This document shows, one piece after another, positions 6,773 to 25,565 of a stretch of 64,000 bases of DNA. The position numbers and the translations under genes are program-made. Under the pieces are notes generated by a model. It was given only the letters and a program-made list of their open reading frames with translations. It searched no databases and had not been told where the DNA came from. The first letter of the stretch is position 1. Each line of letters opens with the position of its first letter. This DNA is from Psilocybe cubensis (taxonomy: Eukaryota), in assembly GCA_017499595.2 (NCBI GenBank), contig CM039001.1, positions 1,302,001 to 1,366,000 on the forward strand. Reading direction: 5' to 3'.

Positions 6773-7893
6773 TTAGATACCCCTGTAGGTAGCAAGTTGA
6801 GAGTTCATGCGGGTGGTTTGTCCAGGGGTGAACTCAGTCATGCAGCTATCGTAACTGTAGTCCATGTAGTTGTCTGTTGGAGAAAATAAGAAACTGTATA
6901 TGAAATGGTTCCTACAAGTTGGACTTACGGATGGGGTCGACACCAGCGGAAGAGCAGGTATCACGGCCAATGGGGCACCCAGAAGCAGCGGAAGCCTCGG
7001 CAGGGGTGTCGGAGACGGAGTCACCAGTTCCAGAGCATCCGCCTTGGAAAGTGTGGTAGAGACCGACCCAGTGGCCGACTTCGTGCGTGAGCGTCTGGCC
7101 GAGATTGTAGTTGGTAGTGGTTCCTCCAGGGAGGGAAGAGTAGAGGAGGACTGATCGTCAAAATATTAGTTGGAGTGACTCGAAACATATTTAAACATCG
7201 AGTAAGAACACTAACCAACGCCATCATCCTTGTTGGAGCTGGAGAAGCTAGAGGGGAAGGTAGCATAGCCGAGCAATCCGCTAGTGGAGCTGGACTTGAA
7301 TCTGGAGAGGAAGGAATGTTATTACCTGCTGAGGTAGTTGCTCAATTGAAATAATAAAAACTTACCCAACAGAGTAAACGTTCAAGGTGGCCTTGGTACC
7401 TTGACGAAGAGCGTTCTTCATGGCGGTTTGGTAAGAGTTTGAAGGGCCAGCATTGTTAAACCAGTTGGAGTTGGTTGTCCTGGTGATGTTCTTGAGAACG
7501 AAGCTACGTCCGGTGGAAGCATAATCTTCGTTGAGAACATCAATCTGAGCCTTGATCTGGGAGTCACTGCAAGAAATAATTAGTACGGTTATGCTACCTT
7601 GAAATAGTGCTTGACATACGGAACATTCCCAGCTGAGAGGGAGGTGCCGGAAGAAACGACGTGGAAGTAGACTTCGATAGGGGGGTAAACAGCATTGGCC
7701 TTGACAGCAACTGCGTTGGCCTTGAAGTGAGCTTCCTGAATCTTGACCTGGGCATCAGAGATGACGGTTCCACAGTTCCTGTAATCAATTCTCAGTAAGC
7801 TATCACTTAAATATAAGAAATATTAGACACATACCTAGCGACAACAGTCGAGGCGGCGAAAAGGAGCCCGATAGTAATATTGCGGAGTTGCAT
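6773..7893 (-). CDS. Secreted M43 (pappalysin/ulilysin-like) zinc metalloprotease, paralog 1
   Basis: Signal peptide [20 protein letters not shown], intact [12 protein letters not shown] (HExxHxxGxxH), Met-turn [18 protein letters not shown]. Confidence 0.93.
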
Positions 7894-9185
7894 CGTGAAC
7901 TGGCTGAGGTCTCGAGAAGAAAACAAGGAAAGCTGGCACACTAGGCGATGCTGGCCTTCCCCCTCACTTTTTTGCCGTCTTATATGGTCCACAAGAATTA
8001 CACCATTCAACCAGAAAATATGGGTGCATATCTGTAAATTACTTTCGAACGCATGGTCATGTTCGATAGCAAACCTCAGCGCATGTTGTCGAATCAAGAT
8101 ACCTCCAAAATTTAGTGGTGTTGTGACCACTTAAAGAGATCGGCTACAACATTGTGTGGGTCGACTACGACAAGAAGGGGCCAAGACTGAAGAGAGTACC
8201 AAGAATTTCAATTTGAGGGAGTCACCACAAAGGCGCTGTCCCCAGATAGCTTGCCGTCAGATGGGTGTGTCGTTTACTGAAGCAGAAACGCGCGGGCGTT
8301 GAATCGTAATAGTCACCGGAATTAATGGACATCGTATCCCGCACAAGAATCAAAGATAACGCCATGGCAAACCATCGTGAATAAGGCTCGGAACCAGTTG
8401 ATAATCAGGGATTGCTTGTGGAGGACGCGCGCCTACATGACTGGACGGAATGTAAAAACCTCTATTGCAGAGAAGGTTGATGGGAAGACGGGTTGTGGAA
8501 CTGTGCATTAATGAATGAGCTATATTGGCGAGCAAGAGATCTGGGGTAGGTACGACTGTGCAGGACTCGACGAGTGTCGTCGGACCCTGATCTGTTGAAG
8601 TTGGGGCTCGGACGTTATGTATACATCATCGATGCAATCCGACACAAGAGGGCTTCCGACAGCTTAAATTGGGGCATCCAATTGGCTTCCAAGTTAGGGC
8701 AGGGTTTGATACCTCCCGGCCGGTCCGTGTGATAGTGGTATAGGTCTGGCGCTCTCAACCGGTGTGTTACTTGTGTTTTAAACAGGTGTTATACCACGTC
8801 ACGTGACTGTCGGACTTTTTACATATGACTGGTAAAACGACTACTAATTCTCATTTTTTAGGCTGTTTATGGCTTTACCAACAATTTCTCCAATATATAA
8901 ACAATAAATACAATACATATGTCACTTTCTCAAAGGCGCACAGTACCTTGGGCAGTTTGTGCGCCGTTTTCAGTCACATCAGGGTACGAGGTAGGGGTGT
9001 CACATGAATGTGACCCGCGAGTCACAAAGGTCGAATTTCGACAATGTTTGCAGTCTGCACGCCGGGGCATGAGCTGCTAAGGTATGAAAGGTGCGCGGTT
9101 CAATAGTGTATGGTACTTGGTATGATTTCGTGTAAAAAATTGATGTCACAGCAAAATGAGTATAAAGTAATATCTACCTGTATGA

Positions 9186-12100
9186 TTAAACAAAGTTATC
9201 TATGTTCCATTCACCCGGTTTGCCTTGAGCAAAGTTTGAATCATCATCGTGAGTTGTCCTTTCAAAAAATAATTTGGAGCCCGGTCCATTTGTGTCAACA
9301 TTGGTGATGAGCAAAACCAGGTTTTTATCATCAAGTTGCACAAAGGAAGAAATGTCAAACCGGTCAGATGTGCGAGTGAGTTGGATGGCACCTTCAGAAG
9401 TAGAGTTGGAGATGTGCAAAGCAGAATCCATGCGGTTGACTTCGTCCAAATCATATGGATCGGGATTATTGAACCATAGATGTTCCAAAGCCGCAGAATT
9501 GAGTTGGGGGTCAACATTGTCCTTGTTGACAAGGTCCATTAGCGTTGGAGCGGAGAATGTAGAGGGAGCTGAATTCATAGGAGATTCGGATATTGTGGAA
9601 AGATGAACACGAGCGCTATGCTTGAATCCCTTTTCACTGAATCCATTGACATAGTAGTCGTAAAGCTTCGCTGAGCTAATAAGATGCTCTGGAGTAATAG
9701 AGCTGCGACGTGCAGCATTGAACCAGCCAAGACGAGAGGCTGTTCTTTCATCACAAATCTCTGAAGGAGAGATGGAAAATATTTTGATTGCAACTCGCTA
9801 TAAGATAGGTCAGCTAAATGTGGCACAAAAATCGCAAAAATAAAGCTCACTGCAAGCAAATTACTGTTTGAATCTTGTGCAAATTGGTTCCACCATTTAA
9901 GAGGTTTTGTATTGCGTGTCAGGGGAGCTTGTTGGAACGGAGTCTGATTATAAGCATAGGCAATTAACTGGCGGATTAGAATGGGGACAACTTCCATTCC
10001 TGAATCTTGTGTGCGTAGTTGTTCGCCTTGGAAAATACAGAGAACAGATGTGAGAAGCAGCTTAAAAAGAGTGGGATAATTTTCTTTGGTCAATGCTTGG
10101 TCCTTTGAAAGTGGCGGCATGACAAGTTGTATTCCTCCATATTGATGAAATACTGAAGAATAGTTAGATATTAATTGGTACAAATCAGTTAATTAAGGAC
10201 ATACATGGATGAAGATAATATGCAAGAAAATATATGTGGTGAGACGACTCTTTCATCATCTGATTAAACCGATGATTGTAGATGTTGACAACTTCACTTC
10301 GAAGATTTCCAACTCCAATAACAGGAGATGCAAGAACTTGCTCCAAGTCGTATGCAATGCAGATCCAGCTATAGAAAACGTCGGCACAGGTAGTATTCTG
10401 ACCTTCGAGTGTAAGAATTGCCTTTGCTCCAGATGACAAAAGCGAGATAAAGCCATTCATAGAAGCCATAAACAAGTAGTGTTGAGCACCATCTTGAATA
10501 TATGGTAGAAGCTTCTTTGTCTGACAATAAAACTGTTAGAAATGCTAGTAAAATATGGGCATAAATATGTACCGGTGGAGTATCAAACTTTAGAACGTTA
10601 GATTTAATACACTTCTTGATCAAGGGCATGCAAGTGTAGACAGAAACAACTTGCGTATAGCTTGACGAAAACCGTGTGTCAGAATGTGACCTGATTCCTT
10701 GTGCCACTCCATCAACTTTGCGCTGAATATCCAGATGGAATGTGCCGTAGTTTGACTTTCCAAAATAGTTTGCAAGTGCAGATGAAATTGACAAAGTCTA
10801 CATGTATCAAATATTTCAACATCATAAAATTAACAAAAGTATTGTTTACATACGTCTTTAAAAAGCTTCCCGAGATCTTTCATGAAGAGATTCAAATTAT
10901 GACACGGATCGTAAATGTTAAGAATCCATGGATATTGCTTGTTGATTTTAATTCGAGCTGCTCGAACATTTGATCCACCATCACCTGCTACTGCACTATA
11001 ACGTTTTATGCCATATAGATTGAGAATCTAAACACAAACTTGAATCAGTATAAGTATAGAAAAAATTGGTTTAAAATTTACCCGTAAAGCAGCATCAACG
11101 AGAACTTCACCTGTTACAGAAATTCCATTGAAGACTCTTCCATCCGTAAAGAAAGATCTTCGTTTCGGAGTTGTTGTATGAAAAGTATAGATTTCATCCT
11201 TGGACCGTGAACTCCAGCCATCGAGAGATAGTGTAAGATGTGTCTTGCTTTCAATAAACTGTAAAAAGCTTTCACTCCAAGCAGAAACCTCTTGAGCAAG
11301 ATGTTTCGGAAAGAATGAGGAACGATCCGGAATGGTAAAATTTGGAGCTAAAGCAAAGCAAAAATTGACAAAGAACTCGCTGTCCATTGTTGCCCAGGGA
11401 AGTGCACAGCATATAAACATACGAAACATATGCAGCTCAATATTGAGTCGCTGCTGCTCGGTGATCTTTGCCGGATTCATGTACGTAAGAATACTAGACG
11501 GTTTGTTGACAGAAATAGACACTGATTTGCCGCTGCTCGTAATCCGATCAGATGAAGAAGAGACATTTTCGAGTTTTTTGGTGTGTGAACGAGAAGCGAG
11601 ATTCTTCACAACCAGGTTATACCAGTTTGGAAAGTTTGTAGCCAGCTTCTGAAATTTAAAATGAATGATATAATACTTTGAATATGCAAAGACATTACAT
11701 ACAGTACATTCCTGTGCATGATTTCTAATTCGAGTCGTGTCTCTCTGCACAGCCGCTCTATCACATCCAATGCAATAAACAATAGCTTTTGTTTTGACAG
11801 ACCCCGGAATTGATTGTTCAAACTGCAGAGTTACTGCATCTGCAAGATTGTCCCGAGTTTTTCCGCCTTTTCGAGCCTCACTGATAGACTTGGGGCCCCG
11901 AATAGGCCCAATATCTTCTCCAGGCTTTCCACTATCATGCAAGAGCTTTCTTTCAGCAACAAGCTTTGCACGATAATTGATAGCTTCTTGAGAGCCACCA
12001 ATACCAAGAACACCATCAGAAGATCCTGTGACACCGACAGATTCACATGGAGTTGAGTGTGGGAGTGTAGAGGCATCCAAAGATAGACCGTTTGAAGGCG

Positions 12101-12382
12101 GCTTAATTAAGAAATATTAGCTATACCGTGAAATGTAATAAAATTTTAAAAGCTGGACATACCGTAGGCCATGGTAAATGTTCTCCTTCTTTGTATATCC
12201 GTGTCCAAACCTCATTCAGCTTCTCCATGTATTGACTCCAGTCCTTCCAGTCTTCGCTTTTGTGATCCAAGATTGTTGAATTGACAGCATCCATTAGATT
12301 GGCAAGATTAACACCGTTATCTCCAGAATGAATAAATTGTTGACATAGGTCAACTAAAGTTTGGTAGTTGTTATGGTCTAGC
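9186..12382 (-). CDS. hAT-family transposase; original start codon displaced to 24671-24673 by the KDZ insertion
   Basis: BED-like CIGCD...IRNHAQEC finger, RNase H-fold LSLDGWSS, AGDGGSNV...YDPCHNLNL, DTRFSSSY, PLKWW and C-terminal dimerisation-region IFSISPSEICDERTAS. No stop or frameshift noticed once introns are removed. Confidence 0.9.
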
Positions 12383-12464
12383 CACCTGTAATTACCCTGC
12401 TTATATATAAAACCCTTGCACTGCAATAAAATGCTCCATACATGGCAGCAGGCACTTGCTGCAT

Positions 12465-12990
12465 GGATAATCTATTATCCATTTACTTAGTCTGCCTATC
12501 AATTATCCATTCCGTTATCCAAGAGCCTTGTTATCCATTATCCATTCCCGTGTGCGCCATTAACAATTGTTTCTATCCATTGTCCGCCGTATCATCCAAA
12601 GGGTACATTATCCATAGCCCCGCTTCATGATCCAACAGCCGTTATCCATTTCTGTGCGCGCCATTAATAATCTATTCCATCCATTGTCCGCTGTATTATC
12701 CAAAGGGTACATTATCCATAGCCCCGCTTCATAATCCAACAGCCGTTATCCATGTCTGTGCACCCCATTAATAATCGATTCCATCCATAGTCCGCCCTCT
12801 TATCCAAAGGGTATATTATCCATATACCCCTGAATTATCCAACTGCCCACTATCAATTTCCATGCAAACCATTCATGACCCGCTCTATCCATCATCTGTA
12901 TTCTTATCCATGGGTCATTTCCCCCTTTCATACCACGATATTCATTGCCCTGCGATTATCCAAGAGCCGTTTATCCACTCCCCTGCGCCT
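12465..12990 (+). repeat. Left subterminal tandem array of the KDZ element (about 104-bp unit, TTATCCAT-rich)
   Basis: Unit CCAACAGCCGTTATCCAT...CCATTAATAATC...TCCAAAGGGTACATTATCCATAGCCCCGCTTCAT recurs, e.g. at 12632 and 12736, with about three good copies plus degenerate flanks. Confidence 0.9.
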
Positions 12991-13201
12991 TATTCAACAC
13001 TATCTTCCAAGAAAACAATTACAATTCCAAGAAAACATACACTATAAATATACAGAATCACTAAAAGGATGTCAAGATGTACAAGGTACGTTCTGTCTGC
13101 ATCAGCTGGATGCGAGCGCAATAAAAAGCTCAAGAGAATTGAAAAAAACAGTCTGAATGTCCAAGATCACGTGTCAAAAACAAATGCCAGCGCATCACGC
13201 C

Positions 13202-16053
13202 TCAAGCCTTCGCTTTCTTTGTTCTTTTTTCCTTCCCAGTTTCCTCCGCCGCCTTCCTCTTGTTGTTCAGTTTCGCCTTTTGGAAGGTGTTGAAGGTGTT
13301 GAGTAGGTCACTTACTGCTAATTCCCAGAGACCATCCGAGGCTTGAGCCGAGTACCACCACTTTAACCCAACCATCACTGTCAACAGCCCATTGGGTCCA
13401 CCTTTCCGTAACGAAGCCATTGAATCTTTTGCCTTCGCAGTCTCGAACGACAACGGAAGGGAATTCGGGGTTTTGGTTTGACGCCACGCCGGCTGTATGG
13501 AGTTCCACCAGGTCATCCATGACTTCTGAAATTCGTCTTGACGGATAGCTGGGATAGCGGTGTATTTGCGGGATGAGGAAAGCCATTTCCCGAGGGCTGT
13601 TGGTCTGCCTTTCGCGGGGAGCCTCAACTGCAACGGTAATCAGTATCTTTATCTGCTTTTGTGCATGATCCGGGACTCACAGAACTCGTATCCATCTCAG
13701 CAATTTCCATTCTCTCGAAACTCTCCCATGCGCGCACACATTCCTGCCATTTTTCTACCTCGATATCTTTGAATAGATATTCACTCGCTGCCAACAGCCA
13801 TGCTGTGGTCTGTGGAGCATCCTTCGAAGCTGCTGCCTTTCTGTTACGACTACGCGTTGCACTGGCGTCCAAGTTCTCGCTTTTGTCTGGAGCCGCAGTC
13901 AAAGGTGCATGCATGCCACTCTCGGGAATAATTGGATCGTTTACTGCATGGTTGGATAGAACTCCAGCTGAGTTTGTGGCGCTGAGCACTGGCGCTGACG
14001 TCTGGGCAGGGACTATGGTGTGAGGTGCTGAGATGGAATGGTTTGGGTCCAATAGCATCGGTGCGTTTGCCTGTCCTGCCATCATATCCTGACTTTGTAA
14101 CATTTGGCCATGTAAACCAGGAAGCGTCACTGTGTTGTTTGTGTTGAGGGCAAGTGCGGTTCCCATCATGTTTGGATCCGCTGCGTACTGTTGCAGGGCC
14201 AGGTCAATTCTATCCCATTCCTCTTCTGAAAAGTTCAAGGTAAGTCCATCGCCCCTATTCGCATCACCCGCTTGTAGCCGCATCATATCCTGGCCTACAG
14301 CAGCTGTCAACTGGTCTATGTCTTGGCCACCAACTCCATCCGTCATAGAAATGGCAGCACCATAAGGCAAGAACGCAGCAACTGGATTTGGGGCCACCTT
14401 GGCCTGTTGAGGTAGAGGATTGGCAGGCGGAAGGAAGTTTTGTGCCTCAATGGTAGCGTGGGTAGCACCATTTGTAGCTGGGTAACAAGGTGGGCTTGGA
14501 CTTGCCACACTTTGAGTCGGTTGCACCTGAGCTGGTTGGACTGTGCTTTGTGTCATGACAGGAGCCTGAGCAAAGCCGATGGCCACCGCCGGCGCCGCTG
14601 TCATAGAGGCCATTGCAGTCTGTTGTGCGGCCTCAGGGGGAGTATGAGCTGCAGTTATGGTGTTTGGAATAGGGCCAGAAAGCTGAGCGGCACTTCCCAT
14701 GTGAGCATTGGTTGATGAGATGGGTACTGATGCAGCTGTATAAGTTGGATGGAAGGGCACCTGATTGATAGCAATTGGAAGGCCAGAAAGCTGAGCGACA
14801 CTGCCCATGTGAGCATGGGTTGATGAGGTGGGGACCAACGCAGCTGGGTCGGGCACCTGATTGACAGCGATTGGAAGTGCATTGCTCTGAATCTCTGGTT
14901 GTGTAGTCACAGGGGGAGTTGTTTCCGACAAGACATTTTCTTGCCCTGCGTCGCCGGTTTCAACTTTGCTGGTACTGGCAACTTGGTTCTCTTCTGGCTT
15001 TGCCTTTGAGCTATTGAGAGTTTGTCGGTCGCGATCCTCTTGCGCTAAAGAAAATGGTTGATTAGGTCACTATGTGTTAGAAATACAGATAAATTGCTCA
15101 CAGAAAACATTGTATAAAAAAAGTCTGAACGGCGATAGCACATGTTGGTAAAAATGTTCATTCGCAATAGAAAACAGTTGTTCATATTTGTCTCGACCGT
15201 TGTGGACAGCGACAGTACGAATTTTGCCTTGATCAGCAGGCTCAGGTCCTCCAGCAATTACTGTGAAAACCCATCCGGTACGACTGCTCATTTCATCTAT
15301 AAACGCTTGGATAGTTTCCGGCAATGTCAAGAGATTACTAACTTTGTATCAGTAAGACTTTAGCACAAAGAATAGATCACTTACATTGCGCATTCTTCTG
15401 GAGACATGACTTCCGGCATGTCAGGAATTTGTCCCTTCAGCTCCTTGAGCTTTGCCAACTCGGCACGAATTTCCGCCTTTACCTCATCAGACTCGTCATT
15501 CCAGGCCTCCCCGGTGCACTTGTTGATGATTGCAATTCGGTGACCTTCAGGATTGGTGCGGAGAGCCTCTATTACTCGTGGCCTAATGCGTTCATCATAA
15601 TATTTCTTGGAATACAAATTTGTTTCCGAGAGAAGTCGGGGAGCGTTGTTGCCACCAATAACAATGGTCGGACCTCGCCGATGTTGGGTGCCGGCCCCAC
15701 GATTATTAAACCAATTAACAATTTGCTGTTACAAATATGACCTCGTCAAAGAAACTCATACACTAAGTATGAATTGTGCTTACGTTTTTCCGCAACTTAA
15801 CCCATTCTGCATGAGAAAGTTCGGTTTTCGTTTGAGGCAAAACAACAGGTGCATTTTTCTTTTTCTTCTTCTTTTTTGGAACAGTCATTGGTCTAACTTC
15901 AGCCTCAGGCGTAGGCCACAAGACAAAAAATTCTTGGTATATTTTTGTCCAAAAATTGGGGGTGGTTTTTGTACGCTGGGACGCCTGGAACTCAGGAACC
16001 TTGGCGGATAGAAACTCAATTTGTTCGGGAGTCCCCCACGGTAGCGGCGGCAT
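13202..16053 (-). CDS. KDZ cargo gene A: large protein with helical N-domain, HMG-box-like segment, low-complexity linker and Trp-rich C-terminal domain (multi-exon)
   Basis: Spliceable exons: MPPLPWGTPEQIEFL...FFVLWP, poly-Lys NLS-like run, YSKKYYDERIRPRV...EAWNDESDEVKAEI (HMG-like), RTGWVFTVIAGGPEP, and WMTWWNSIQPAWR...LRKGGPNGLLTVMVGLKWW. HMG-type genes are known companions of fungal KDZ elements. Confidence 0.75.
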
Positions 16054-16355
16054 TTTGATCTAAGTATAGCAGTTGTTCTAAGAATAAATGAATGTCAAAT
16101 TGTTTGTTTTTTAAGCGCACGCAAACTCACCTCAAATAACAGAGTTAGACTTAAGGTCCAGAAAATGCAGTAAGACCTTCTAGCTACTTCTTCGATTTGA
16201 CGGCAATAGCTTGCTTACATTATTGAGAGATTCACCGCAATTTACCGTGTAACTGTACAGTTGCTGATGCTTCTTTGGACTCTGCATATAAAGATGCTCC
16301 TATCTGCCGCAATCTTATCCTTAACTCCCTACTCGCAAAAAAAACCTCTCACAAA

Positions 16356-17425
16356 ATGGCTCAACAAAGTACACCTCCCCCAACTCTCCCTAATTCTACC
16401 GTCCCTCCCTCTACCGCCCCTGCAAGCCGTATAATGTCTACCCGTGTTGGCGACGTTATCAATCTCCTTCTTGCACTAAACAATGCTGGTACGTGCCCAT
16501 TTTTGAGTTTCATGTTAATTTCAACTTGTTTACATTTAATCAGGATTAGAAGTTGTTCGTACACCCGATGGCGTTGATCATGCTTCAGGGTTGGAAAACC
16601 TTGCCATGGGGGAGCTTATCTTGATTCTCCAAATCATGGGCATTCATGTCAAGGGTAATCGCGCTACTGCTGCACCCCCTCCTCCTTCTGATAGTAAGTC
16701 ATCTTCGACTCCCTTTAACCTAATGTTTTATTTAATTGGACTGTAGGCCGTGATCCCTTGGTCCAAGAGATTGAACAGATGGTTATTTCATCTGCTCGTC
16801 GTCAGGCTATTAATCTTTTCTTTAGGCTTACCAATGGGCCGTTGAGTAAGTGAACACTGTTCATACTATCATGCTCAGCACAATCTAATTAATTTTAGCC
16901 GTCCCACCTGTCATTCTTGAAGAGTTATCATCAACTGTGGCTCCCCCTCCTTCGTCTGTTGAACCACAGGCCACCGTCACTGATCCTGCCCTACTTCCTC
17001 CAAAGTCCCAGTCTGCCTCCGACACTGTCATGCCCAAAGGCTTTGTGTGCATGTCCTGCAACACGTATAACCCTATTCGCCCATCTGAAAAGCCAGTCTA
17101 CGTTGTGTTTTGTGGTACAGATGTGGGGGTCTTTGACCATTGGTATGTTCCACATTCTTTTGAGATTGCATTTTGCTCAATTTAACACATATTTAACAGG
17201 AAAGATGCTCAGAGCCTTGTTTCTGGCATATCTCATGCTTGCCATTGTCGTTATAATAGTCGCGAGGAGGGTGAGAGGGCGTTCCAAGCTGCTTTGACTG
17301 CCGGAAAGGTTCGCATACTTGGTAATCCTATTGCTGCGCCTGGAGCTATTGTCTCTTCCTTGTCCCCAAATGCCCCCAATGGCACCTCTGGCTCCTCCAG
17401 CGAGGCCTCTAGTAGCTCGGATTAA
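16356..17425 (+). CDS. KDZ cargo gene B: protein with RNase H1 N-terminal (hybrid-binding/caulimovirus viroplasmin-like) domain preceded by a CxxC motif
   Basis: Spliced C-terminus reads FVCMSCNTYN...PVYVVFCGTDVGVFDHW|KDAQSLVSGISHACHCRYNSREEGERAFQAAL, which fits the YxVxxGxxxGVFxxW...V.G......F.S..EA..AF pattern. TAA at 17423-17425. Confidence 0.8.
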
Positions 17426-17775
17426 TGAGTAGACTTACTCCACCCTCGGGGTTTTTCCTTTTCCGTTCAATATCGTGTAGACAGCACCATTTGTCACCGC
17501 GTATGAAAAGTTTCCCCGCACTTTTAGTAGCACCACTTGTATCTCTTGTACATCTCATTTTGATTTCTTGTCTGTGTTTCCGAATATATCTTGAACTTGT
17601 GCTGCTCTCCATATCCGTGTGAATGAAATCTTCAATAATCAAATAAAATATTATTGAATGTCTCTTTTGTAGAGTCATTATATTATGCCATGTACCCCCA
17701 TGCACCGTAGCTTCAATGTCGAACGATATACAATGATGTTTGTACTATATTAAAAGTCCAATAGAAGTAATAACC

Positions 17776-18469
17776 CTATTGCGAAACCTTTTGAAATTCA
17801 AAGGATTTAGCATTGTAGTTGCGTTCAACGAATTCAAGGTCTTCCATTGCAGTCAATTCAATCTCTTGCAACCAAGATTGTGTCTTCTCTAGCAGTTTTG
17901 CAAGAGCGACTGTCTTATTCCACTCTGGGCCAACTCCTGAACACATATATATATGGTTTTTATATCGGGAAATTGGCCCAAGAAAGTGCTCTATCTTGTC
18001 AACCGATTCCGATAATTCGTGCATGTCTTGATTGCTGATAAACTGGAGGCAGATTGCCTCAGTATGTGCAATAGGATCCGATTTGATAAAGGTGTTGAAG
18101 CGCCGGTAGACTCGAAGAACTTCGTCCAACCAAGTGGCCGCCGGTGGCTTTGACTTGGAGACAGGCTCTTGTTCAACAGCCTGTGCTTTACGTGCCGTTT
18201 CAATTCTAGAAATGAAGATTAATTCAATCTATAGAGATTATGCACATTCATAATCAGCAGGAATACCTTTTTTGTTGGATGCGAGCATATTTTCTTCTGC
18301 GACGTCGGTTTATGCTATCCTTGCATCTAAAAAACATTATAAAACATGTTTGTAACCAGATTTATGGGAGGAAAACAACTGAATGCTACTTCTCATAATA
18401 TTTCTTGCTCTTCTGCCTATTTGCGGCAAGTTTCTCAGCTTCAGAAAAATACTTGCGCTGTCGTCCCAT
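17776..18469 (-). CDS. KDZ cargo gene C: small protein with highly basic N-terminus and helical C-domain
   Basis: Exons MGRQRKYFSEAEKLAANRQKSKKYYEK / CKDSINRRRRRKYARIQQK / ...WLDEVLRVYRRFNTFIK...WLQEIELTAMED, joined by canonical introns. Confidence 0.7.
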
Positions 18470-19049
18470 TGGTAAAGGTGAAAGCCAGGTAGCGATTTAT
18501 TAGAAACTTTGCATTACTTACACGCCATTTCAGGGCTTCGTCTGACTTTTTTAACTACCAGGTAAACCCCCCCTCCAAAGGGTACCAATTGAAACATTGA
18601 ATTAATCTACACTCAACTCTCGTCATCCAGAGCTTTACAACCATCTGTGCCGATGTTCTATGGTTTTTGAACTCTGCAAGATAAGTTTTCAGGCTATGTC
18701 TAGACTGGGATTGAAAATGTAAAATAATAATAGAAGACCTTACCGTCATCCATTTGTTCGTTGGCTATCAATGGCTGGCAGCACCCTAATGTCAACCTTC
18801 AGCTTCATTATCCATTTACTAGTCCTTTATTGATTGGGACTTACTTTACCGTCATCCATTCATTCAATTGTTATCCATGAGTTGTTTGCAACACTCTTGT
18901 CCTCGTTGTCCATTTCCTTGCCTGTTATTGATCAATTATTTTTGCTGACTCGCTGCTTATAAGTTGGGATGAACGCCACAAAACTCATCTGCATCACCTT
19001 TGACCTGCCCATAGACACCACTATCGCGTTTATCAGCAACTCACAACCA

Positions 19050-19578
19050 ATGGCCAAGGTTAAGCAAAGACGCCGTCGTACAGATAATTTCAAAGGTCCA
19101 TCGGTGAGTAGACTTGAGCCTGATTGTTATAAAATGTGATCATTTTTACTAAATTGTCGTTCAAATTTGTAGGCAGTCACAATAGAGCCCGGCATTAGAC
19201 CAGTTACATTGGATACGAAGTCCAAACAAGACAAATTTCTCGCCGATGCTGGCCCATATTATCGCCAGGCCAAGTCTAAGGGAGAAAAGGAAGAGTTTCT
19301 TCACGAAATCAGCCAACTTTGGTTTAGAATTTGGCCGGAGGATCCGTTGAATACGGCAGACATTGATTTTGCACGTCACAGACAAAAGAATATTATGAAG
19401 GTGAAAGTTGTGTTTATATTTTTGTATGCCGCTAACTAACGTCTATATGTTACAGAAAATCAGAACAAGGCTGTTACTCCTCGGTGCCTTTGGGATTGTG
19501 GAAGGAGATACGTTGTGGAGGGACTTTATTGCTGCCAAAATGCACGAGCTCCATCCTGACAAGCTACCCTCTGTCTGA
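19050..19578 (+). CDS. KDZ cargo gene D: small basic protein resembling the N-terminal domain of cargo gene A
   Basis: Three exons: MAKVKQRRRRTDNFKGPS / ...KQDKFLADAGPYYRQAKSKGEKEEFLHEISQLWFRIWPED... / KIRTRLLLLGAFG...LPSV-TGA. Confidence 0.65.
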
Positions 19579-19653
19579 TCTAGCCACTGTTTTGTTCGGC
19601 TTAATGTACCTACTACATAGTGGTCCAGATTTTAAATTTGCACAAATTATACT

Positions 19654-22600
19654 CTAGTGACACTCAACCATTTTGTATGCATTACGGCCTTCTGACATGG
19701 TCGTCAACTTCTCTGTTACACCATCCCATTGTTTCGCACAACGGTCACCTATATCACGTCGTATATCTGCCTGTTTCTTTGCATAAGCAATCTTACCAGA
19801 ATTGATAGCTTGTGCATCTCGGTTAGGTACATCCGTCGAGTCGATGATATCCTGTGCACGAGAATCCCACTGAGCGGCTTGCCAAGCAAAAAAAGCAATA
19901 ACACGGCGCATCTCCTCTGCTAATAATACACACTCCTCTTGCCAGCGATGTGCGCGTGCACGGGCTTTGCACCATTCGATACGAAGAGCTGGACACTAGC
20001 ATTTGTTTGCATTCAATTAGGTAAGGTAAAGACAACACACCTGCCTGTGTACACTTTTCGGCGTCTTCGCCCATACCGTGTACCTTCCATATCCAGGACA
20101 GTTTCTTGCGGCCTTCACTTCCAGAGTCGTCCATAGAGCTCAGTCCTCTAACATCAGTGTCCAGCAGTGGACGAAGGATATCACGCCACGTGTAGTATAC
20201 CGTTGGCGTTGAAAGCAAATCAAGAGCTTGATACGCAACATTGTATCGCGCTGTTGCAAATTTAATCTTTTCTTCAACAGCTGCGAGCAACGTCAAGCTT
20301 CTTGTCTGCATACGCTGTCCTCGTGAGTGTCGCTTTTTTGAGTTTAGCATATGTGAGCGAAGGAGTAAGAAAGCACGGAGGTTGTTGAGGCAATCTTCAG
20401 CCTGGGCATATCGGTACTGCGATTCGCATTTTAGCAATATGTGGGATGAAAATCGGATGGTTTCTGTGTTGTAGGAAGGCAAATATAGCTTGATATCCTG
20501 TACCGCTACTGGTGTCTCAGCCTGCAAGTTTTCGCGCGCACGCAGAGCTGCAACTGCAGGCATATAAAGGTGCTGTATATTTATCCAAGCATCAATGCGT
20601 CGTTTTAATGAGTTTGATCGTTCGAGAATTTTAGTCTGTTGGATGTTCGTAGAATGGGCTCCAAGTTTGGAGATGTCAAGCGCAAGTCGTGCTCTAGTCT
20701 TGTTTGTAACCATGTAAAAAATAGCCTATAAACGACGTACTGTGATTCCTCAAGCTGTAAGCCCTGTGATATCAAGACACTCGGAGTTACTTCCTCATGT
20801 AAAGTAGTCATCTCTCCGCGTTTTAATGCATCTGAGTCCTCACGAGCTAATTGAAGACGAACATCGGATTCCTTGACAGAACCTAGCAATGCACCATAAA
20901 CAATAGAACAAGAATCAGAAAAATACACGTACTATTCTTCGGAATCACATAGGGATTCGGTTGACTGGAGTCCTTTTCCCATGTCAAACACATCTGGGTC
21001 CATTCCGACGTCGATTCTTCTGGCAATGCAGCGTCAAACTCAATGAACGCCTCGACCTGTTCTTGTCGCTCTTGAATAGCTTCCTTCGCTTTCCGTAAAA
21101 ATGTTACAACTAAAGTGCTTGTCAATATATGTGCATAGATTGCAGAATATTACGACGTACCAATCGTGATAATTTTTCGCCAGTTATAATCTCCAAAATG
21201 GTCATCCAATGTGTCGTTCCGAGACCCTGGCCCCATTTCCTTTGTGCTGCTGGCTATACCGTTTGCCGTTGCCCATCCTCTCTCTGGTGCCTCCCCATCT
21301 GTGCGCCCAACTCCCGGAGTATAGTTGAAAGAGAAAGACGTTTGGCATTTCTGAATATGAGCAGCAAGGTGGAATTTTGGTACGAGGTAGACAATGGAGA
21401 GATTTGATGGATCGGAGAGCACATTCTTAGGATATAATTGGCACCTTTTCATGAGATTGATCCACCATTGGCAGGCAATGTCGTAGGAGACAACAAGACG
21501 GAGTAAAAGTGTGGCTGCGATTGTTGATAAGAAGAAATAATCCATATTAACGTATCTACGGCATCATGTGAGTCATGTTGACATGCAAGCATGTGACTGA
21601 AGACCTTACCTTTCACCCTTTTGTAAGTCTCCTACTGCCACGGGTCGCTTCATGTCGTGTCGACTACATTCGGCTGTACCAAGTCCACTTGCTGCTGTCC
21701 CATGTCCACCTCGTGAGTTAGCCGATTTGATAGCATCGTGGTTATTGCATGAGCTCTTTTCATCTGCAACTTGACCATCGTAGTTTGCCAAGTAGTTTTT
21801 GAATTTGCAACTCTCAACCATATAGGCATATCCATGATTAAGCCCAGGGTCTCGCTCATCTGTAGATACGTTCATTCGCTTCAAACGAAAGTTGGCATCA
21901 ATAGCTATAAAAAGAGAATAAAGCCATCTATTTTTGGACGTGACAATCAGACCCAATTGCCAGTGGACAACACCAACGAGTAAAAATTGGTACGTACTGT
22001 TCTGATTCTGGCCTCTCCTTCCAATTGTCGGGTAGATTGATGCCCGGGTGGGGACATGCAGGACATAGAACAGCACATTCACCCTCTTTAGTCCCATTAA
22101 CACCGGTCTCAGAGTGACCTCGACCCATCCGTTTGAGGAGACGTACATGACGCCACTCACGTATGATCCTCAAGAAGACAGGATATCTGTCCTACATATT
22201 GAATATTAAAGATAGCAGGATAATAGAAGAAATGGAAGAGCTCACTGGTGGTGCCTTTGTGCCGGTGTTGTCTGTCAACCGTGATAATGTAGAGTAATAC
22301 TCGTATCCCGAGACCTTCGAGTTAAATGAAAGGAGCTGAAAGTGTTCCAGCACATCAAATGTAGCCGCTGTTTTGGGATCGCCTACTGTAGAAGGAAATA
22401 AGCGGGCGCGAAGAAGTTGGATGGGCTTGGATGGTGCAGAAGGGCACCCGCAGTAGTCTAAGGCAATTTCATGGATTCCTGTACGCGCAATGACCACAAA
22501 TTCGTCGTTGAAAGCTACCATTGGTATAGGACAGTCATCATGTCCCAGCTGCACTCGCATTCCAAGTTTCTTGAGGCTGGTCCTGCGAAAGTAATGTCCA

Positions 22601-23354
22601 GTCCAGACCTGCAAATTTGTCAATAATTCAGTATCATCATAGCCAACCCCACTCGCCTCGATTCTATGAAATGGGTTGACCGAATGAGACCGGAGAACAC
22701 AAGCGAGACACAACAGAGATCCGCTCCAACAGTCTTTGCAGCGAAACGCGCCTGCTTCGAGGTCCGAAATACACCCAATTTCAGAGCATTTCTGGAGATT
22801 TGCCTGCCCACCAATACCCTCCAGCCGGAGAAACTCTTCAACGTAGGTGTCAATATGCGGAGTCCAGAAGTGGATGGGATGTGTCTAATCGAATATGTGA
22901 GTGGTAGGTGCTGAAACACACATCTATTAGAGCAGGAAACTGTACGTACCGATTGTGTTTTTCGTTTTTTCTGTGGAACCTCTTCTTCAGGATCAGCTTG
23001 AACCTTATCTCCAGTCTTCAAGTTTGGCTTGAGATAATTCTTTAGCCCCAATGCCTCCAATTCGCATTCTGCCATTTCTTCCAACTCAAGATCACCATCA
23101 AAAATCCTATACGGAGATTCTTCGCTCAGCACCCAATCAAGTCGAGGAGTAGGCGATTCCACAGAGCCTAGAGGAGGGGGTGTGGGAAGCATAGGCTGAA
23201 TTCCTTGCGGCAGCGGCATCCGTATGGTATGGTGCGTGCGTCCATGGTATTCAGTGTGAATGTCGCCAAACGATGCTGTTTTCGCGTCTCGTTCATCAGG
23301 AGAGATATATTCGTCATAATAAACCTTTTTCTTGCGATTCACTCGGCGTTTCAT
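19654..23354 (-). CDS. KDZ transposase with N-terminal CxC2 cysteine cluster (multi-exon)
   Basis: CxC2 region (CKDC...CLACVLRSHSVNPFHRIE, QLGHDDCP, YCGC, QLLRARLFP), ECAVLCPACPHPGINLP, and KDZ core LFIAIDANFRLKR, ECSRHD...GDLQKGERYVNMDY, VSYDIACQW, VPKFHLAAH, GRTDGEAPERGWA. The predicted catalytic D-D-E residues are present. Confidence 0.95.
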
Positions 23355-23479
23355 GTTGTAAGTTGAAAGAACCTGCGAGCTAAGTGTATACACAAAAGAG
23401 ACAAGGAAGCTTTGAACAGAAACGTCATTTCCAAGGAGACTAGAAGCGGAAACAAGAGGATGTATAACTCATACTGATA

Positions 23480-24570
23480 TGGATTATTAGCTCAGAGTGG
23501 TTGATGGATATTTTACAAGGAAATGGATAGACTTCAAACATTGATGGACAGTAAGGAAAGGTATCAATGACAGTGAATGATGGGAAATGTTACGGGGAAC
23601 CAAATTAATAAGTGCCTGATCTTCACGGGTGACAAGCGGGATGGATTAACGGGAGGCCATGGATGACAAGGGCATTCAATAATCAACGTTGGTATGGATG
23701 GAGACTGCGCACTGCACGGGTGTCAAGAGTGATGGATAAGTAGAGGGGCAATGAATGATTAGGGCAATAAATGAGCGCGATGGATAATGAGAAGAGAAAT
23801 GGATGTTGAGGGTGATGAATAATGAACGCACATATCGATAGGCGCCTGCACTACGCGGGTGTCAAGCCTGATGGATAATCAGAGAAATGGATGTCGAGGG
23901 CGATCAATAATGAATGTGGGAATGGATGAGGGGCAGCCTGTGCAATGGTGGAGGGCGATGGATAATAAGAAAGGCAGTTGATGTCGAGGATGATGAATAA
24001 TGAACATAGATATCGATAGGCGCCTGCACTGTGCGGGTGTCAAGCCTGATGGATAATCAGAAAGGCAATGGATGTCGAGGGATATCAATAATGAACGTAC
24101 ATATTGATAGGCACCTGCACTGCGCGGGTGTCAAGCGTGATGGATAATCAGAAGGGCAATGGATGTTGAGGGAGATCAGGCTGATGGATAATTATATGGG
24201 CAACGGATGACAAGGGCAATGAATAATGAACGTACATATCGATAGGCGCCTGCACTGCGCGGGTGTCAAGTGTGATGGATAATCGGAAGGGAAATGGATG
24301 TCAAGGGAGATCAGGCTGATGGATAATCATATGGGCAACGGATGACAAGGGCAATGGATAATGAACGTACATATCGATAGGCGGGTGCACTGCGCGGATG
24401 TCCAGCGTGATGGATAATCAGAAGGGCAATGGATGTTGAGGCCCATGGATGACATACTAGTTATGGATTACGAAGGGGTATGAATGACAGCGTGGGTATT
24501 GAATAATGGCTCAGCAGTTTGGGGAATACTATGGATAAAGTTCTAATGTATCTATCATAAAGGCGTTGGA
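23480..24570 (-). repeat. Right subterminal tandem array of the KDZ element (about 90-135-bp units, ATGGATAA-rich)
   Basis: Core ATAATGAACGTACATATCGATAGGCGCCTGCACTGCGCGGGTGTCAAGCGTGATGGATAATCAG occurs near 23820, 23998, 24088, 24223 and 24358, plus a degenerate copy near 23700. Its ATGGATAA octamer is the reverse complement of the left-array TTATCCAT. Confidence 0.92.
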
Positions 24571-25565
24571 TAATTATTGATGGGGAATGCATTGCCGTGG
24601 CTCATATATGAGGTATGCGCAAGGTCTTCTGGAGGTTGATATATAAGAACGACTGCTACGCCTCGTCTAGCATAGTTGATAGAGCAGTTTACTGGTAGAA
24701 CAAACAGGACAATCGACGATGAATGTACAATAAATAATTTAGACCGAGAAATTCCGATTTTTATTGCTCCCGGAGAATCACACCAGTAAAACACACAGAA
24801 TTTCCGCCTCCAGTCGTGTTATTGGTATATCACGTGTGTTACATTCGTGTAATACCTTGGCGTGGTATACCGGTATGTAACAAACCCTGCACTATTCCAA
24901 GTTGATCCCAAGAGACTTGTTTACATAGAGCTTGTGCGGCATGATTTTGATAACGAGCGAGCGACAGCGTGTTGAGAATGCTGCCATATGAACAGATTAG
25001 CAAGTGACCGCAAGTCGGACGGGGTAAGTGGGAGTTATGAACCCGTTACTACCCCCGGGCACACAACGCGATTTTGAGAACGTGAGAGACCTAATGATGG
25101 GTTCTCAGTATCATTAGACGGCATTCCTTTTATTACCACTGCTAGCTTGTGTTGTCGTTTTTCTTTAAAATATTTCAGTTTCGTTCAAAGTTCATGCGTA
25201 ATCTCCTCCAGGTTCAACAACTGTGAGAAGTACACACCGGTTCTTAGATTGAAATTAATAACATTCCTGCCCTCTGTCAGCAGAGCTCGTAAAGAGCTAT
25301 AGCATAGATACTTACCTCCCAATACATTTTGTTTCGCGTGGATGAATAACTTCTTAGAAAGAGCCGCGTGTCCTGGATGATCTCGTTGCCTTCTCGCCGA
25401 CAATAAAGTATAATGCAAGCACAAGCCCACGTGTTAATTTAAATAACATAAGATTTAAGCTACAAAGGTTAAGTACGTGTTGACTTGGGCATACATCTTG
25501 CGCACAATGTCCCCCGTTGAGATATATGCCTCAGCATGAGGACCTTAAAATTCGGAAGAGTTTTT

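What the first reader, a model, noticed from the sequence alone, without database searches (positions are those of the whole stretch)
13202..19578. Four-gene cargo module of nucleic-acid-binding-like proteins in a KDZ element with no TET/JBP gene
Seen: two divergent gene pairs (A/B and C/D), all spliced and apparently intact, encoding an HMG-like/Trp-rich protein, an RNase H1-N-like protein and two small basic proteins. No TET/JBP dioxygenase was recognised. Established: basidiomycete KDZ elements often travel with TET/JBP and HMG genes. Inference: this is a dedicated accessory system for targeting, end-binding or anti-silencing that may replace TET-based demethylation. The exact boundaries show these genes belong to the element and not to the host.
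Basis: partly seen in the sequence, partly recalled or inferred. Interest (0 to 1): 0.75.

Follow-up and report, generated by a model that had tools for sequence, protein, structure and literature searches.

The report
Four-gene accessory module in KDZ transposon
A recently active 12-kb jumping gene of the mushroom Psilocybe cubensis carries, beside its transposase, four intact helper genes (one with a DNA-bending HMG box) that also sit next to related transposases in other mushroom-forming fungi, so they are probably part of the transposon's own machinery and not host genes.

Summary
At 13202-19578 there are four intact, spliced genes in two divergent pairs: A 878 aa, B 283 aa, C 189 aa, D 134 aa. 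They lie inside a 12,282-bp CxC2-KDZ transposon (12383-24664, 7-bp target duplication GTCTAGC). Its limits come from reads and contigs of other strains that join 12375 to 24665. This element is itself nested in a 3.9-kb hAT-like element (8695-24894, 8-bp duplication), which is absent from this site in other strains. The A, C and KDZ proteins recur with the same accession spacing at four or five loci of the P. cubensis assembly.

A belongs to a family with no Pfam model (1485 cluster representatives). It has an N-terminal helical module, an HMG-box fold, a disordered linker and a Trp-rich C-terminal helical module. D is a stand-alone copy of A's N-terminal module. B has an RNase H1-N-like motif (a lead only). 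C belongs to a Basidiomycota-wide unnamed family.

In environmental fungal contigs, 14 of 15 A-like genes with at least 6 kb of upstream flank have a CxC2-KDZ gene there. The closest ones keep the order D-C-(B)-A. dN/dS is about 0.26. No TET/JBP was found.

An accessory role in transposition is likely but inferred. Replacement of TET is untested.

The parts
12376..12382 (.). left copy of the 7-bp target-site duplication GTCTAGC of the KDZ element
   Evidence: the joint 12375->24665 has 7 letters that fit both sides
12383..24664 (.). CxC2-KDZ (Kyakuja-like) DNA transposon, 12,282 bp. It starts CACCTG and ends GCCTC and has no true TIR. A 9-nt core CTTATATAT sits at offset 18-26 from both ends, in inverted orientation.
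   Evidence: A copy of the carrier element without it is seen in X9 (a 3838-nt contig) and in 10 reads of X7. End comparison.
24665..24671 (.). right copy of the 7-bp target-site duplication GTCTAGC
12460..12950 (.). left subterminal repeat array: 104-nt units that carry many TTATCCA motifs
   Evidence: 15 of the window's 22 TTATCCA lie in 12500-12999.
13202..16053 (-). gene A, 878 aa, 5 exons. Residues 1-110 form helical module N1; 115-196 an HMG-box fold; 199-292 a helix, beta-hairpin and helices; 296-693 a disordered linker; 690-866 a Trp-rich helical C module.
   Evidence: (identical to P0003); intron 4 confirmed in RNA contigs
16356..17425 (+). gene B, 283 aa, 5 exons. An RNase H1 N-terminal (Cauli_VI)-like motif is split by intron 4 (17143-17199).
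   Evidence: protein-atlas lead with scores 0.87-0.89; the motif and the intron place are conserved in 5 metagenome loci
17776..18469 (-). gene C, 189 aa, 3 exons, pI 9.6, with a basic N-terminus and a helical body
   Evidence: (P0002)
18737..18935 (.). C-D intergenic region with short repeats like those of the subterminal arrays
   Evidence: D8, I3; I3, I4, I7, I21
19050..19578 (+). gene D, 134 aa, 3 exons, pI 9.9; a stand-alone paralogue of A's N1 module
19654..23468 (-). CxC2-KDZ transposase gene (annotated protein P0004, 1085 aa). The limits given are those of the outer open frames.
23500..24600 (.). right subterminal repeat array (units of 45, 91 and 135 nt with TGGATAA), inverted relative to the left array
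   Evidence: 11 of the window's 17 TGGATAA lie in 23500-24499.
8695..12382 (.). left part of the carrier: a hAT-like element of about 3.9 kb into which the KDZ element inserted. Its TIR starts TAGGGCAGGGTTT. Its transposase-like frames lie on (-) at 9186-12290. It is not part of the finding but explains the outer 'exact boundaries'.
24665..24894 (.). right part of the hAT-like carrier. The 8-bp duplication TTCCAAGT lies at 8687-8694 and 24895-24902.
   Evidence: The empty-site joint 8686->24895 is seen in X7 (24 reads), X9, X10 and X5.

Best explanation
The region is the accessory half of an autonomous, recently active Kyakuja-like CxC2-KDZ DNA transposon of Psilocybe cubensis. The element spans 12383-24664 and has a 7-bp target duplication.

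Shown: the four genes A-D are intact. They are bounded by the element's ends. They are repeated with the transposase gene at other loci of the genome. Related CxC2-KDZ elements of other fungi keep them in the same order.

Shown for A: it has an HMG-box fold between a helical N-terminal module, which D carries on its own, and a Trp-rich helical C-terminal module. It evolves under purifying selection.

Inferred: A-D are the element's own accessory proteins, not cargo for the host. The likeliest mechanism is that A, helped by D, recognises and bends the element's ends. Both ends carry inverted arrays of TTATCCA-bearing repeats. This would help the KDZ transposase to pair and cut them, as TnpA does for En/Spm, the Myb-like protein for PIF/Harbinger, and host HMGB1 for RAG1/2 (comparisons recalled, not tested). 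C and B are further accessory factors. B possibly binds double-stranded RNA or RNA-DNA hybrids.
For: Boundaries: the joint 12375->24665 skips 12,289 nt, with 7 letters shared by both sides. It is seen in a 3838-nt contig of X9 and in 10 reads of X7. The TSD GTCTAGC is present on both sides.

Copies: the A protein is held under KAH9476125, 9477335, 9478905 and 9479964 (5 contigs). C is held under 9476127, 9477337, 9478907 and 9479966 (5 contigs). KDZ is held under 9477339, 9478909 and 9479968. This gives n, n+2, n+4 three times. The window's own locus tags are JR316_0004534, 4536 and 4538.

Polymorphism: depth is 0 over 12976-24263 in X7, X9 and X10.

Linkage elsewhere: the paralogue P0017 (JR316_0010230) lies three locus tags from KDZ paralogue P0007 (JR316_0010227). 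In Agrocybe pediades, P0018 and KDZ P0010 both give contig length 29030, and P0025 and KDZ P0009 both give 80420. Among metagenome loci, 14 of 15 with at least 6 kb upstream of the A-like C module have a KDZ gene there, and 10 of 11 with at least 8 kb. Pfam found KDZ in 10 of the 12 long loci examined, and CxC2 upstream of the A-like gene in 9 of those 10; L068 has a partial KDZ only. The order D(-) C(+) A(+) is seen in L008, L010, L019, L021, L026 and L034. L024 has C and A. B-like ORFs lie between C and A in L008 and L034, and upstream of A in L004, L017 and L056.

Selection: for the A C-module, 94 pairs with dS 0.1-1.0 give a median dN/dS of 0.26, a maximum of 0.57, and none at or above 1. 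For the HMG exon, 11 pairs give a median of 0.20.

Fold: in the AF2 model the N part (1-292) and the C part (690-866) mostly have pLDDT above 90. About half of the 50 VIA rows are HMG boxes on residues 115-196, with Z 5.0-7.1; an example is 5jgh, Z 7.1, rmsd 2.3 over 68 residues. Foldseek gives HMG boxes with probability up to 0.87.

D and A N1: 26.9 bits and E 4.9e-7, against 8.1 bits for the best of 500 shuffled D sequences.

End arrays.
Against: No experiment or expression data bear on function.

The only RNA seen covers A's exons 4-5. It comes from a strain that lacks this insertion, and it includes antisense spliced forms. B, C, D and KDZ were not seen in those contigs.

HMG_box in Pfam is below threshold: 16.8 bits against 25.4.

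The N1 and C modules match only generic helical proteins. The best Z is 5.5 for the C module alone, so no DNA-binding or transposase-binding role can be read from the fold.

B-like ORFs were not detected in 5 loci that have both C and A. C- and D-like ORFs were not detected in the more distant KDZ-linked loci.

The transposase gene is inverted here relative to 15 of 15 metagenome loci, so the unit is not rigid.

For 65 of the 80 loci the upstream flank was too short to judge linkage. The family is large (1485 representatives), so many members may be solo or domesticated.

Gene order in the other genomic copies is inferred from accession numbering, not seen as DNA.
Confidence: 0.6

Rival explanations
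1. Anti-silencing kit. The module protects the element from RNAi or methylation-based silencing and stands in for the TET/JBP gene of other Kyakuja elements. B would bind double-stranded RNA or RNA-DNA hybrids through an RNase H1-N-like domain. The HMG-box protein would keep the chromatin open.
For: No TET/JBP is in the element or in 281 ORFs of 12 related loci. Kojima 2025 describes Kyakuja families with TET/JBP (section 3.2.1 read). B's exon 5 lies nearest to three Cauli_VI clusters, with scores 0.87-0.89 and 175-188 shared features. The motif is conserved in 5 loci. Sense and antisense spliced RNAs overlap gene A in X5, so double-stranded RNA could form.
Against: The Cauli_VI assignment never reached a Pfam or PDB sequence match on the single exons, and the spliced protein could not be scanned. 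B is the least conserved member of the module. Nothing links HMG, N1 or the C module to silencing. Lack of TET is the common state of transposons and needs no substitute.
Confidence: 0.15
2. Passenger genes. A-D are captured or hitch-hiking genes with no role in transposition. They would be either neutral freight or genes of some use to the host, as in cargo-carrying giant elements.
For: The family of A is large and widespread in Agaricomycetes (1485 representatives; species). Stand-alone C-module proteins exist, such as P0025, 186 aa. Authors of the Cryptococcus KDZ study liken extra ORFs to cargo (passages read).
Against: The same genes stay in the same order next to CxC2-KDZ in diverged elements: 14 of 15 loci, with A at 30-45% identity. 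Purifying selection acts between element copies. One domain is DNA-binding in type (HMG box), and D duplicates A's N1 module. This pattern fits element functions better than freight.
Confidence: 0.15
3. Separate nested unit. The A-D block is a different mobile or repeated unit that merely tends to land beside KDZ genes, so the 12.3-kb unit is a composite.
For: The relative orientation of the KDZ gene and the A-D block differs between the window and the metagenome loci. Repeats like the left-end array recur between C and D.
Against: A single 7-bp duplication bounds the whole 12,282 bp, and the carrier copy without it lacks all of it at once. No second pair of ends or duplication was seen around A-D. 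The accession spacing repeats for A, C and KDZ together.
Confidence: 0.05

Closest known systems
Kyakuja elements of the KDZ group (Kyakuja-1_LB and Kyakuja-2_LB of Laccaria bicolor; Kojima 2025, PMC12730594, section 3.2.1 read)
   Same: KDZ-domain transposase, 7-bp target duplication, start with CA, no terminal inverted repeats, host in Agaricomycetes
   Different: Those families were characterised because they carry a TET/JBP gene. This element has none and carries A-D instead. It ends in TC, not TG. Clade membership of the transposase was not tested by a tree. The paper text has 0 occurrences of 'HMG', 'RNase H' or 'accessory'. Its supplementary tables were not read.
KDZ1-3 and KDZx1 of Cryptococcus (bioRxiv 10.1101/2024.08.15.608186, passages read)
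   Same: Large KDZ transposons (6.4-10.9 kb) that move today and hold extra ORFs 'without predicted functional domains'. An antisense RNA is noted in KDZ1.
   Different: CxC1 or CxC4 clusters, 8-bp duplications, TIRs up to 236 bp, Dileera or Zisupton clades. No relation of their extra ORFs to A-D was tested here.
Two-protein DNA transposons: En/Spm TnpA with subterminal repeats; the PIF/Harbinger Myb-like protein (the latter named in Kojima 2025; the rest recalled)
   Same: A second element-encoded protein, together with arrays of short motifs inside both ends in inverted orientation
   Different: The proteins are unrelated. Binding of A or D to the arrays is not shown.
HMG-box architectural proteins (Abf2p 5jgh, BAF57 7cyu, SOX, LEF1, TFAM). 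HMGB1 as helper of RAG1/2 is recalled, and 6cij appears.
   Same: Three-helix L-shaped fold over A residues 115-196: VIA Z 5.0-7.1 and Foldseek probability up to 0.87
   Different: The Pfam score is below threshold. The box is encoded by the transposon itself and sits between two modules of unknown fold class.
RNase H1 N-terminal hybrid-binding domain / Cauli_VI (PF01693)
   Same: B's exons 4-5 carry a motif of that type. The nearest atlas clusters are Cauli_VI.
   Different: No RNase H catalytic domain. No Pfam or PDB sequence match on the separate exons. The fold was not predicted.

Membership tests
KDZ DNA transposon | KDZ transposase domain (PF18758) | tested here: met
   3.3e-40 (profile 98-217) and 2e-18 (profile 1-98) on adjacent minus-strand frames; the annotated protein P0004 carries PF18803 and PF18758
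KDZ DNA transposon | N-terminal CxC zinc cluster | tested here: met
   CxC2 PF18803, 4.4e-40
KDZ DNA transposon | defined ends with a target-site duplication, and signs of mobility | tested here: met
   7-bp duplication GTCTAGC. The carrier without the element is seen in X9 and X7. Identical proteins occur at 4-5 loci. The element is absent from X7, X9 and X10.
Kyakuja lineage within KDZ (as described by Kojima 2025) | 7-bp target duplication | tested here: met
Kyakuja lineage within KDZ (as described by Kojima 2025) | termini 5'-CA..TG-3' without TIRs | tested here: inconclusive
   The element starts CA but ends TC. There is no TIR: 30 of 60 end positions match, with only a 9-nt shared core. 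The 7 shared letters do not allow a cut that gives TG.
Kyakuja lineage within KDZ (as described by Kojima 2025) | transposase groups with Kyakuja in a tree | not tested
   No reference Kyakuja, Dileera or Zisupton sequences were at hand.
HMG box (gene A residues 115-196) | Pfam HMG_box above the gathering score | tested here: not met
   16.8 bits against 25.4, E 0.009; 0 of 44 family members hit it at E<=0.001
HMG box (gene A residues 115-196) | L-shaped three-helix fold | tested here: met
   AF2 pLDDT above 90. About half of the 50 VIA rows are HMG boxes, Z 5.0-7.1, rmsd 2.3-2.8 over 62-72 residues for the best. Foldseek gives TM to target 0.5-0.74 and probability up to 0.87, but E>=0.98 with the 878-aa query.
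HMG box (gene A residues 115-196) | binds and bends DNA | not testable with these tools
   needs EMSA or a similar assay
RNase H1 N-terminal / Cauli_VI domain (gene B) | match to PF01693 | tested here: inconclusive
   No hit on exon 4 or exon 5 alone, even at E<=10. The domain is split by an intron, and the spliced protein could not be handed to the scan.
RNase H1 N-terminal / Cauli_VI domain (gene B) | fold of the hybrid-binding domain | not tested
The atlas lead alone stands.
TET/JBP dioxygenase | match to Pfam Tet_JBP | tested here: not met
   No such hit on 30 ORFs, on 20 ORFs and exons at E<=0.1, on 4 exons at E<=10, on P0003 or P0002, or on 281 ORFs of 12 related loci.
TET/JBP dioxygenase | double-stranded beta-helix fold | tested here: inconclusive
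   A's model has only two strands (229-236, 242-249), and no such chain is among the rows listed. C's atlas model matches a helical family. B and D were not folded. By size, a catalytic domain would not fit in either: 134 aa for D, and about 100 folded residues ahead of B's motif.

The most novel reading that the evidence does not exclude
A whole clade of CxC2-KDZ transposons of mushroom-forming fungi runs on a multi-protein machine that has not been described. A self-encoded HMG-box protein (A) and its mini-paralogue (D) would read the TTATCCA arrays and fold the ends into a transpososome. A's Trp-rich C module would recruit the transposase. B would bind the double-stranded RNA or R-loops that arise from the element's sense and antisense transcripts and so blunt RNAi. 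Together these would make a TET/JBP gene dispensable.
Probability: 0.15. Interest if true: 0.8.

Novelty: new variant of a known kind. Interest (0 to 1): 0.6.

Why it matters
KDZ elements are large, poorly understood fungal transposons. Published work deals with their transposase and the TET/JBP passenger, and notes 'extra ORFs without domains'.

This finding gives a complete element with exact ends and four or five apparently identical copies in one strain. It is absent from three other strains' data. It also gives a conserved set of four companion genes. One of them founds a family of more than a thousand cluster representatives with no Pfam model, now tied to an HMG-box fold and to KDZ transposases.

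This turns 'hypothetical proteins' common in mushroom genomes into testable transposon accessory factors. It offers a tractable system for asking what a KDZ transposase needs in order to move. It also matters for annotation, because these genes inflate fungal gene counts as host 'orphans'.

Tried and rejected
1. Whole-genome search of the window's own assembly: no genome is held. Copy number therefore rests on protein accessions.

2. TSD search by brute force: too many chance 7-8-mers. My first guess, the 8-bp ATATATAA at 12403 and 24639 with CACTG/CACGG ends, was wrong. Those bases are part of an inverted core inside the element.

3. Word-indexed homologue searches of A exon 5 and C exon 3 found only the P. 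cubensis proteins themselves.

4. PDB sequence searches: the family profile of A gave nothing better than E 0.6. B's exons gave nothing.

5. Fold searches for N1 and for the C module gave only generic helical or designed proteins, Z<=6.5 in the whole model and <=5.5 for the C module alone. No family is named. A weak likeness of the WFxN helix to homeodomains (2cuf, E 0.71) is not claimed.

6. Complex prediction with KDZ 275-1085 and A 690-878: verdict 'no answer', score 0.00. This is no evidence either way.

7. Runs: no listed holder is on record as RNA. X5 proved to be RNA by its spliced host genes, but it covers only 13071-15044.

A 6-sequence alignment worked.

9. Searching the Cauli_VI profile in the records behind the loci: not held.

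10. Iyer et al. 2014 (PMC3918813): not held.

11. Literature searches found no description of this module. The searches were 'Kyakuja/Dileera/Zisupton' (21 papers), 'KDZ/TET JBP/HMG/Coprinopsis' (0 papers) and 'CxC2/KDZ'. Passages were read in PMC12730594, 10.1101/2024.08.15.608186 and PMC7641404. Supplements were not read.

12. Earlier findings of this scan: nothing relevant.

13. The hAT label of the carrier is weak. Pfam gives only DUF659 at E 0.13 and PDB nothing. It rests on the 8-bp duplication, the TAGGG-type TIR and a DGWS motif seen by eye.

Full report
**What is at the coordinates**

The window is fungal. Database proteins identical or nearly identical to its products are from Psilocybe cubensis. 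From three-frame views I built four gene models with short GT-AG introns.
- A (-): 878 aa, 5 exons, 13202-16053.
- B (+): 283 aa, 5 exons, 16356-17425.
- C (-): 189 aa, 3 exons, 17776-18469.
- D (+): 134 aa, 3 exons, 19050-19578.

A is letter for letter the UniRef protein P0003. The NCBI model P0001 (846 aa) differs only in one splice. C has the length of P0002, which matches its main exon at 100%.

C and D are basic, with pI 9.6 and 9.9. A's last 189 residues are 5.8% Trp. Next to D lies a CxC2-KDZ transposase gene on the minus strand (P0004, 1085 aa).

**Whose genes they are**

Two nested elements are present.

The outer element runs 8695-24894. Its 25-nt TIRs match at 21 of 25 positions and it has an 8-bp duplication TTCCAAGT. 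They belong to a 3.9-kb hAT-like element. That label is weak; it rests.

I laid four public runs of the same species label on 7000-26900. This gave two results.
- A joint 8686->24895 skips 16,208 nt, with 9 shared letters. It is seen in 24 reads of X7 and in one contig each of X10, X9 and X5. This is the empty site.
- A joint 12375->24665 skips 12,289 nt, with 7 shared letters. It is seen in a 3838-nt contig of X9 (depth 322, against about 85 in the flanks) and in 10 reads of X7. This is the carrier element without its insert.

Hence the KDZ element is 12383-24664, which is 12,282 bp, with a 7-bp duplication GTCTAGC. Kojima 2025 (section 3.2.1) reports 7-bp duplications, CA..TG termini and no TIRs for Kyakuja. 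Here the start is CA and the end is TC. There is no TIR. A 9-nt core sits at the same offset from both ends.

Inside both ends lie inverted arrays of repeats rich in TTATCCA/TGGATAA. Of the window's motifs, 15 of 22 and 11 of 17 fall in these arrays.

Depth over 12976-24263 is zero in X7, X9 and X10, so three other strains lack the element.

**Copies**

The A protein is held under four displayed GenBank accessions on 5 contigs, and so is C. KDZ proteins of the same 90% cluster carry accessions that lie 4 after A and 2 after C, three times over. The window's own locus tags are JR316_0004534, 4536 and 4538.

I read this as four or five copies of the whole five-gene unit with identical A and C proteins. 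Gene order in the other copies is inferred from the numbering, not seen as DNA.

**What the proteins are**

A: phmmer against 1.84 billion representatives gave 1485 hits at E<=1e-3, 268 at <=1e-10 and 24 at <=1e-30. Two conserved blocks appear, 1-255 and about 640-846 of P0001, and they often occur in the same protein.

All ten hits I looked up are 'hypothetical proteins' of Agaricomycetes: Psilocybe, Agrocybe, Pholiota, Hypholoma, Tulosesus, Coprinopsis cinerea CC1G_02420, Gelatoporia and Pluteus. None of the 44 proteins scanned matches a Pfam family at E<=0.001 above its cut-off; the only row is an Extensin_1 hit far below its cut-off.

AlphaFold2 with 150 sequences models residues 1-292 and 690-866 mostly at pLDDT above 90, with a disordered linker at 296-693. 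Residues 115-196 match HMG boxes. About half of the 50 VIA rows are HMG boxes, with Z 5.0-7.1. Foldseek gives probability up to 0.87 and TM to target 0.5-0.74, though no E<=0.001 with the long query. Pfam HMG_box stays below threshold.

N1 (1-110) and the C module give only generic helical matches. This holds also when the C module is folded alone (pLDDT 86.5, best Z 5.5).

D matches a profile of the family's N1 module at 26.9 bits and E 4.9e-7. The best of 500 shuffled D sequences scores 8.1 bits (BLASTP E 0.006). D is therefore a stand-alone N1.

C: 29 of the 30 nearest atlas clusters are unnamed, and those shown are Basidiomycota families (scores 0.94-0.96). The atlas model aligns at TM 0.63 to a 187-member cluster.

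B: exon 5 lies nearest to three Cauli_VI clusters, with scores 0.87-0.89. B-like ORFs in five metagenome loci conserve just this motif, and an intron at the same place. Pfam and PDB sequence searches on the separate exons are blank. The RNase H1-N reading therefore stays a lead.

**Linkage to KDZ elsewhere**

In P. cubensis, a 45%-identical paralogue of A (JR316_0010230) lies three locus tags from a 63%-identical KDZ paralogue (JR316_0010227). In Agrocybe pediades, two A-like proteins share contig lengths (29030 and 80420) with two KDZ proteins.

A scan of metagenome contigs with the C module gave 106 confirmed loci out of 551 pattern matches, and 80 were kept.
- Among loci with at least 6 kb upstream of the match, 14 of 15 have a KDZ gene there.
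- With at least 8 kb, the count is 10 of 11.
- With at least 4 kb, it is 14 of 20.

Pfam found KDZ in 10 of the 12 long loci examined, and CxC2 upstream of the A-like gene in 9 of those 10. L068 has a partial KDZ only. Host genes come soon after A; one example is ArgJ in L008.

Profile searches show the order D(-) C(+) A(+) in L008, L010, L019, L021, L026 and L034, and C plus A in L024. B-like ORFs lie between C and A in L008 and L034, and upstream of A in L004, L017 and L056. In the more distant KDZ-linked loci, C- and D-like ORFs were not detected.

None of the 281 ORFs of at least 110 aa in the 12 loci matched Tet_JBP.

One difference stands out. In 15 of 15 loci where the strand can be read, the KDZ gene is on the strand opposite to A. 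In the window it is on the same strand.

**Selection**

For the A C-module exon, 94 locus pairs with dS 0.1-1.0 give a median dN/dS of 0.26 and a maximum of 0.57. For the HMG exon, 11 pairs give a median of 0.20. For C there is a single pair, at 0.29. Pairs share ancestry, and the frames include a few intron-derived codons, so these are rough figures. Neutral evolution is still excluded for A.

**Expression**

No run on record as RNA holds the stretch. X5 shows spliced host genes, so it is RNA. Yet it covers only 13071-15044. It confirms A's intron 4. It also has two splices with GT..AG on the plus strand, which indicates an antisense RNA. X5's strain has the empty site, so these RNAs come from another copy or a fragment.

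**Mechanism**

Shown: A-D are transposon genes that are co-mobilised, conserved in order and selected. A has an HMG-box fold.

Inferred: they are accessory factors of transposition. A and D would read and bend the repeat-bearing ends. The comparison is with En/Spm TnpA, the Harbinger Myb-like protein and HMGB1 with RAG1/2, all recalled.

The anti-silencing and TET-replacement idea has only B's lead and the antisense RNA behind it. A test of A's C module against the transposase gave no answer.

**Novelty**

KDZ elements with extra ORFs of unknown function are in print for Cryptococcus. I found no description of this module or of A's family in the papers I could search and read. Iyer et al. 2014 and all supplements were not seen. 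I rate it a new variant of a known kind, of moderate to good interest.

Noticed in passing
window 8695-12382 and 24665-24894: The KDZ element sits inside a ~3.9-kb TIR element with an 8-bp duplication (TTCCAAGT) and transposase-like frames on the minus strand (BED-like Cys/His motif and DGWS motif seen by eye). This carrier is multi-copy in strain X9 (depth 322 against 85) and is absent from this site in X7, X9, X10 and X5. Pfam gives only DUF659 at E 0.13.
   Followed up: partly
window 13634-13700 and 14059-14120: RNA contigs of X5 carry two splices with canonical GT..AG on the plus strand, antisense to gene A's exons 4-5, alongside the sense splice 13627->13681. The strain has the empty site here, so the RNA comes from another copy. 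Only 13071-15044 is covered.
   Followed up: partly
window 19654-23468, compared with L008, L010, L019, L036, L045, L057, L067, L068, L075, L077 and others: The transposase gene is inverted here relative to the A-D block when compared with 15 of 15 metagenome loci. D and KDZ are convergent in the window, with 75 bp between their stop codons; they are tandem in the loci.
   Followed up: partly
window 18737-18935: The C-D divergent promoter region holds short repeats like those of the left subterminal array (ATCCAT-type). They may be shared binding sites for an element protein.
   Followed up: no
window 6775-7780 and 25575-26620: Two paralogous minus-strand host genes (about 71-77% DNA identity, weak Peptidase_M43 hits) flank the insertion. 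Both are spliced in X5 RNA contigs.
   Followed up: partly
window 776-about 4500: Host nitrite reductase-like gene on the plus strand (Pyr_redox_2, Fer2_BFD, NIR_SIR domains).
   Followed up: no
P0025, P0048, P0051 and others: Many small annotated proteins (about 100-200 aa) consist of the A-family C module alone. They may be truncated gene models or real stand-alone forms.
   Followed up: no
L068:10932-11789 (-); L036:14432-15977 (+): Other transposase genes lie just downstream of the A-like gene in two loci: Plavaka in L068 and a second CxC2-KDZ in L036. These regions are transposon-rich.
   Followed up: no
window 15102-15337 (A exon 3): The NCBI model (846 aa) skips 32 residues that the UniRef model and my model (878 aa) keep. 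The family consensus (TGW..GGP.P.G..H.G) runs into this stretch, which favours the longer model.
   Followed up: partly
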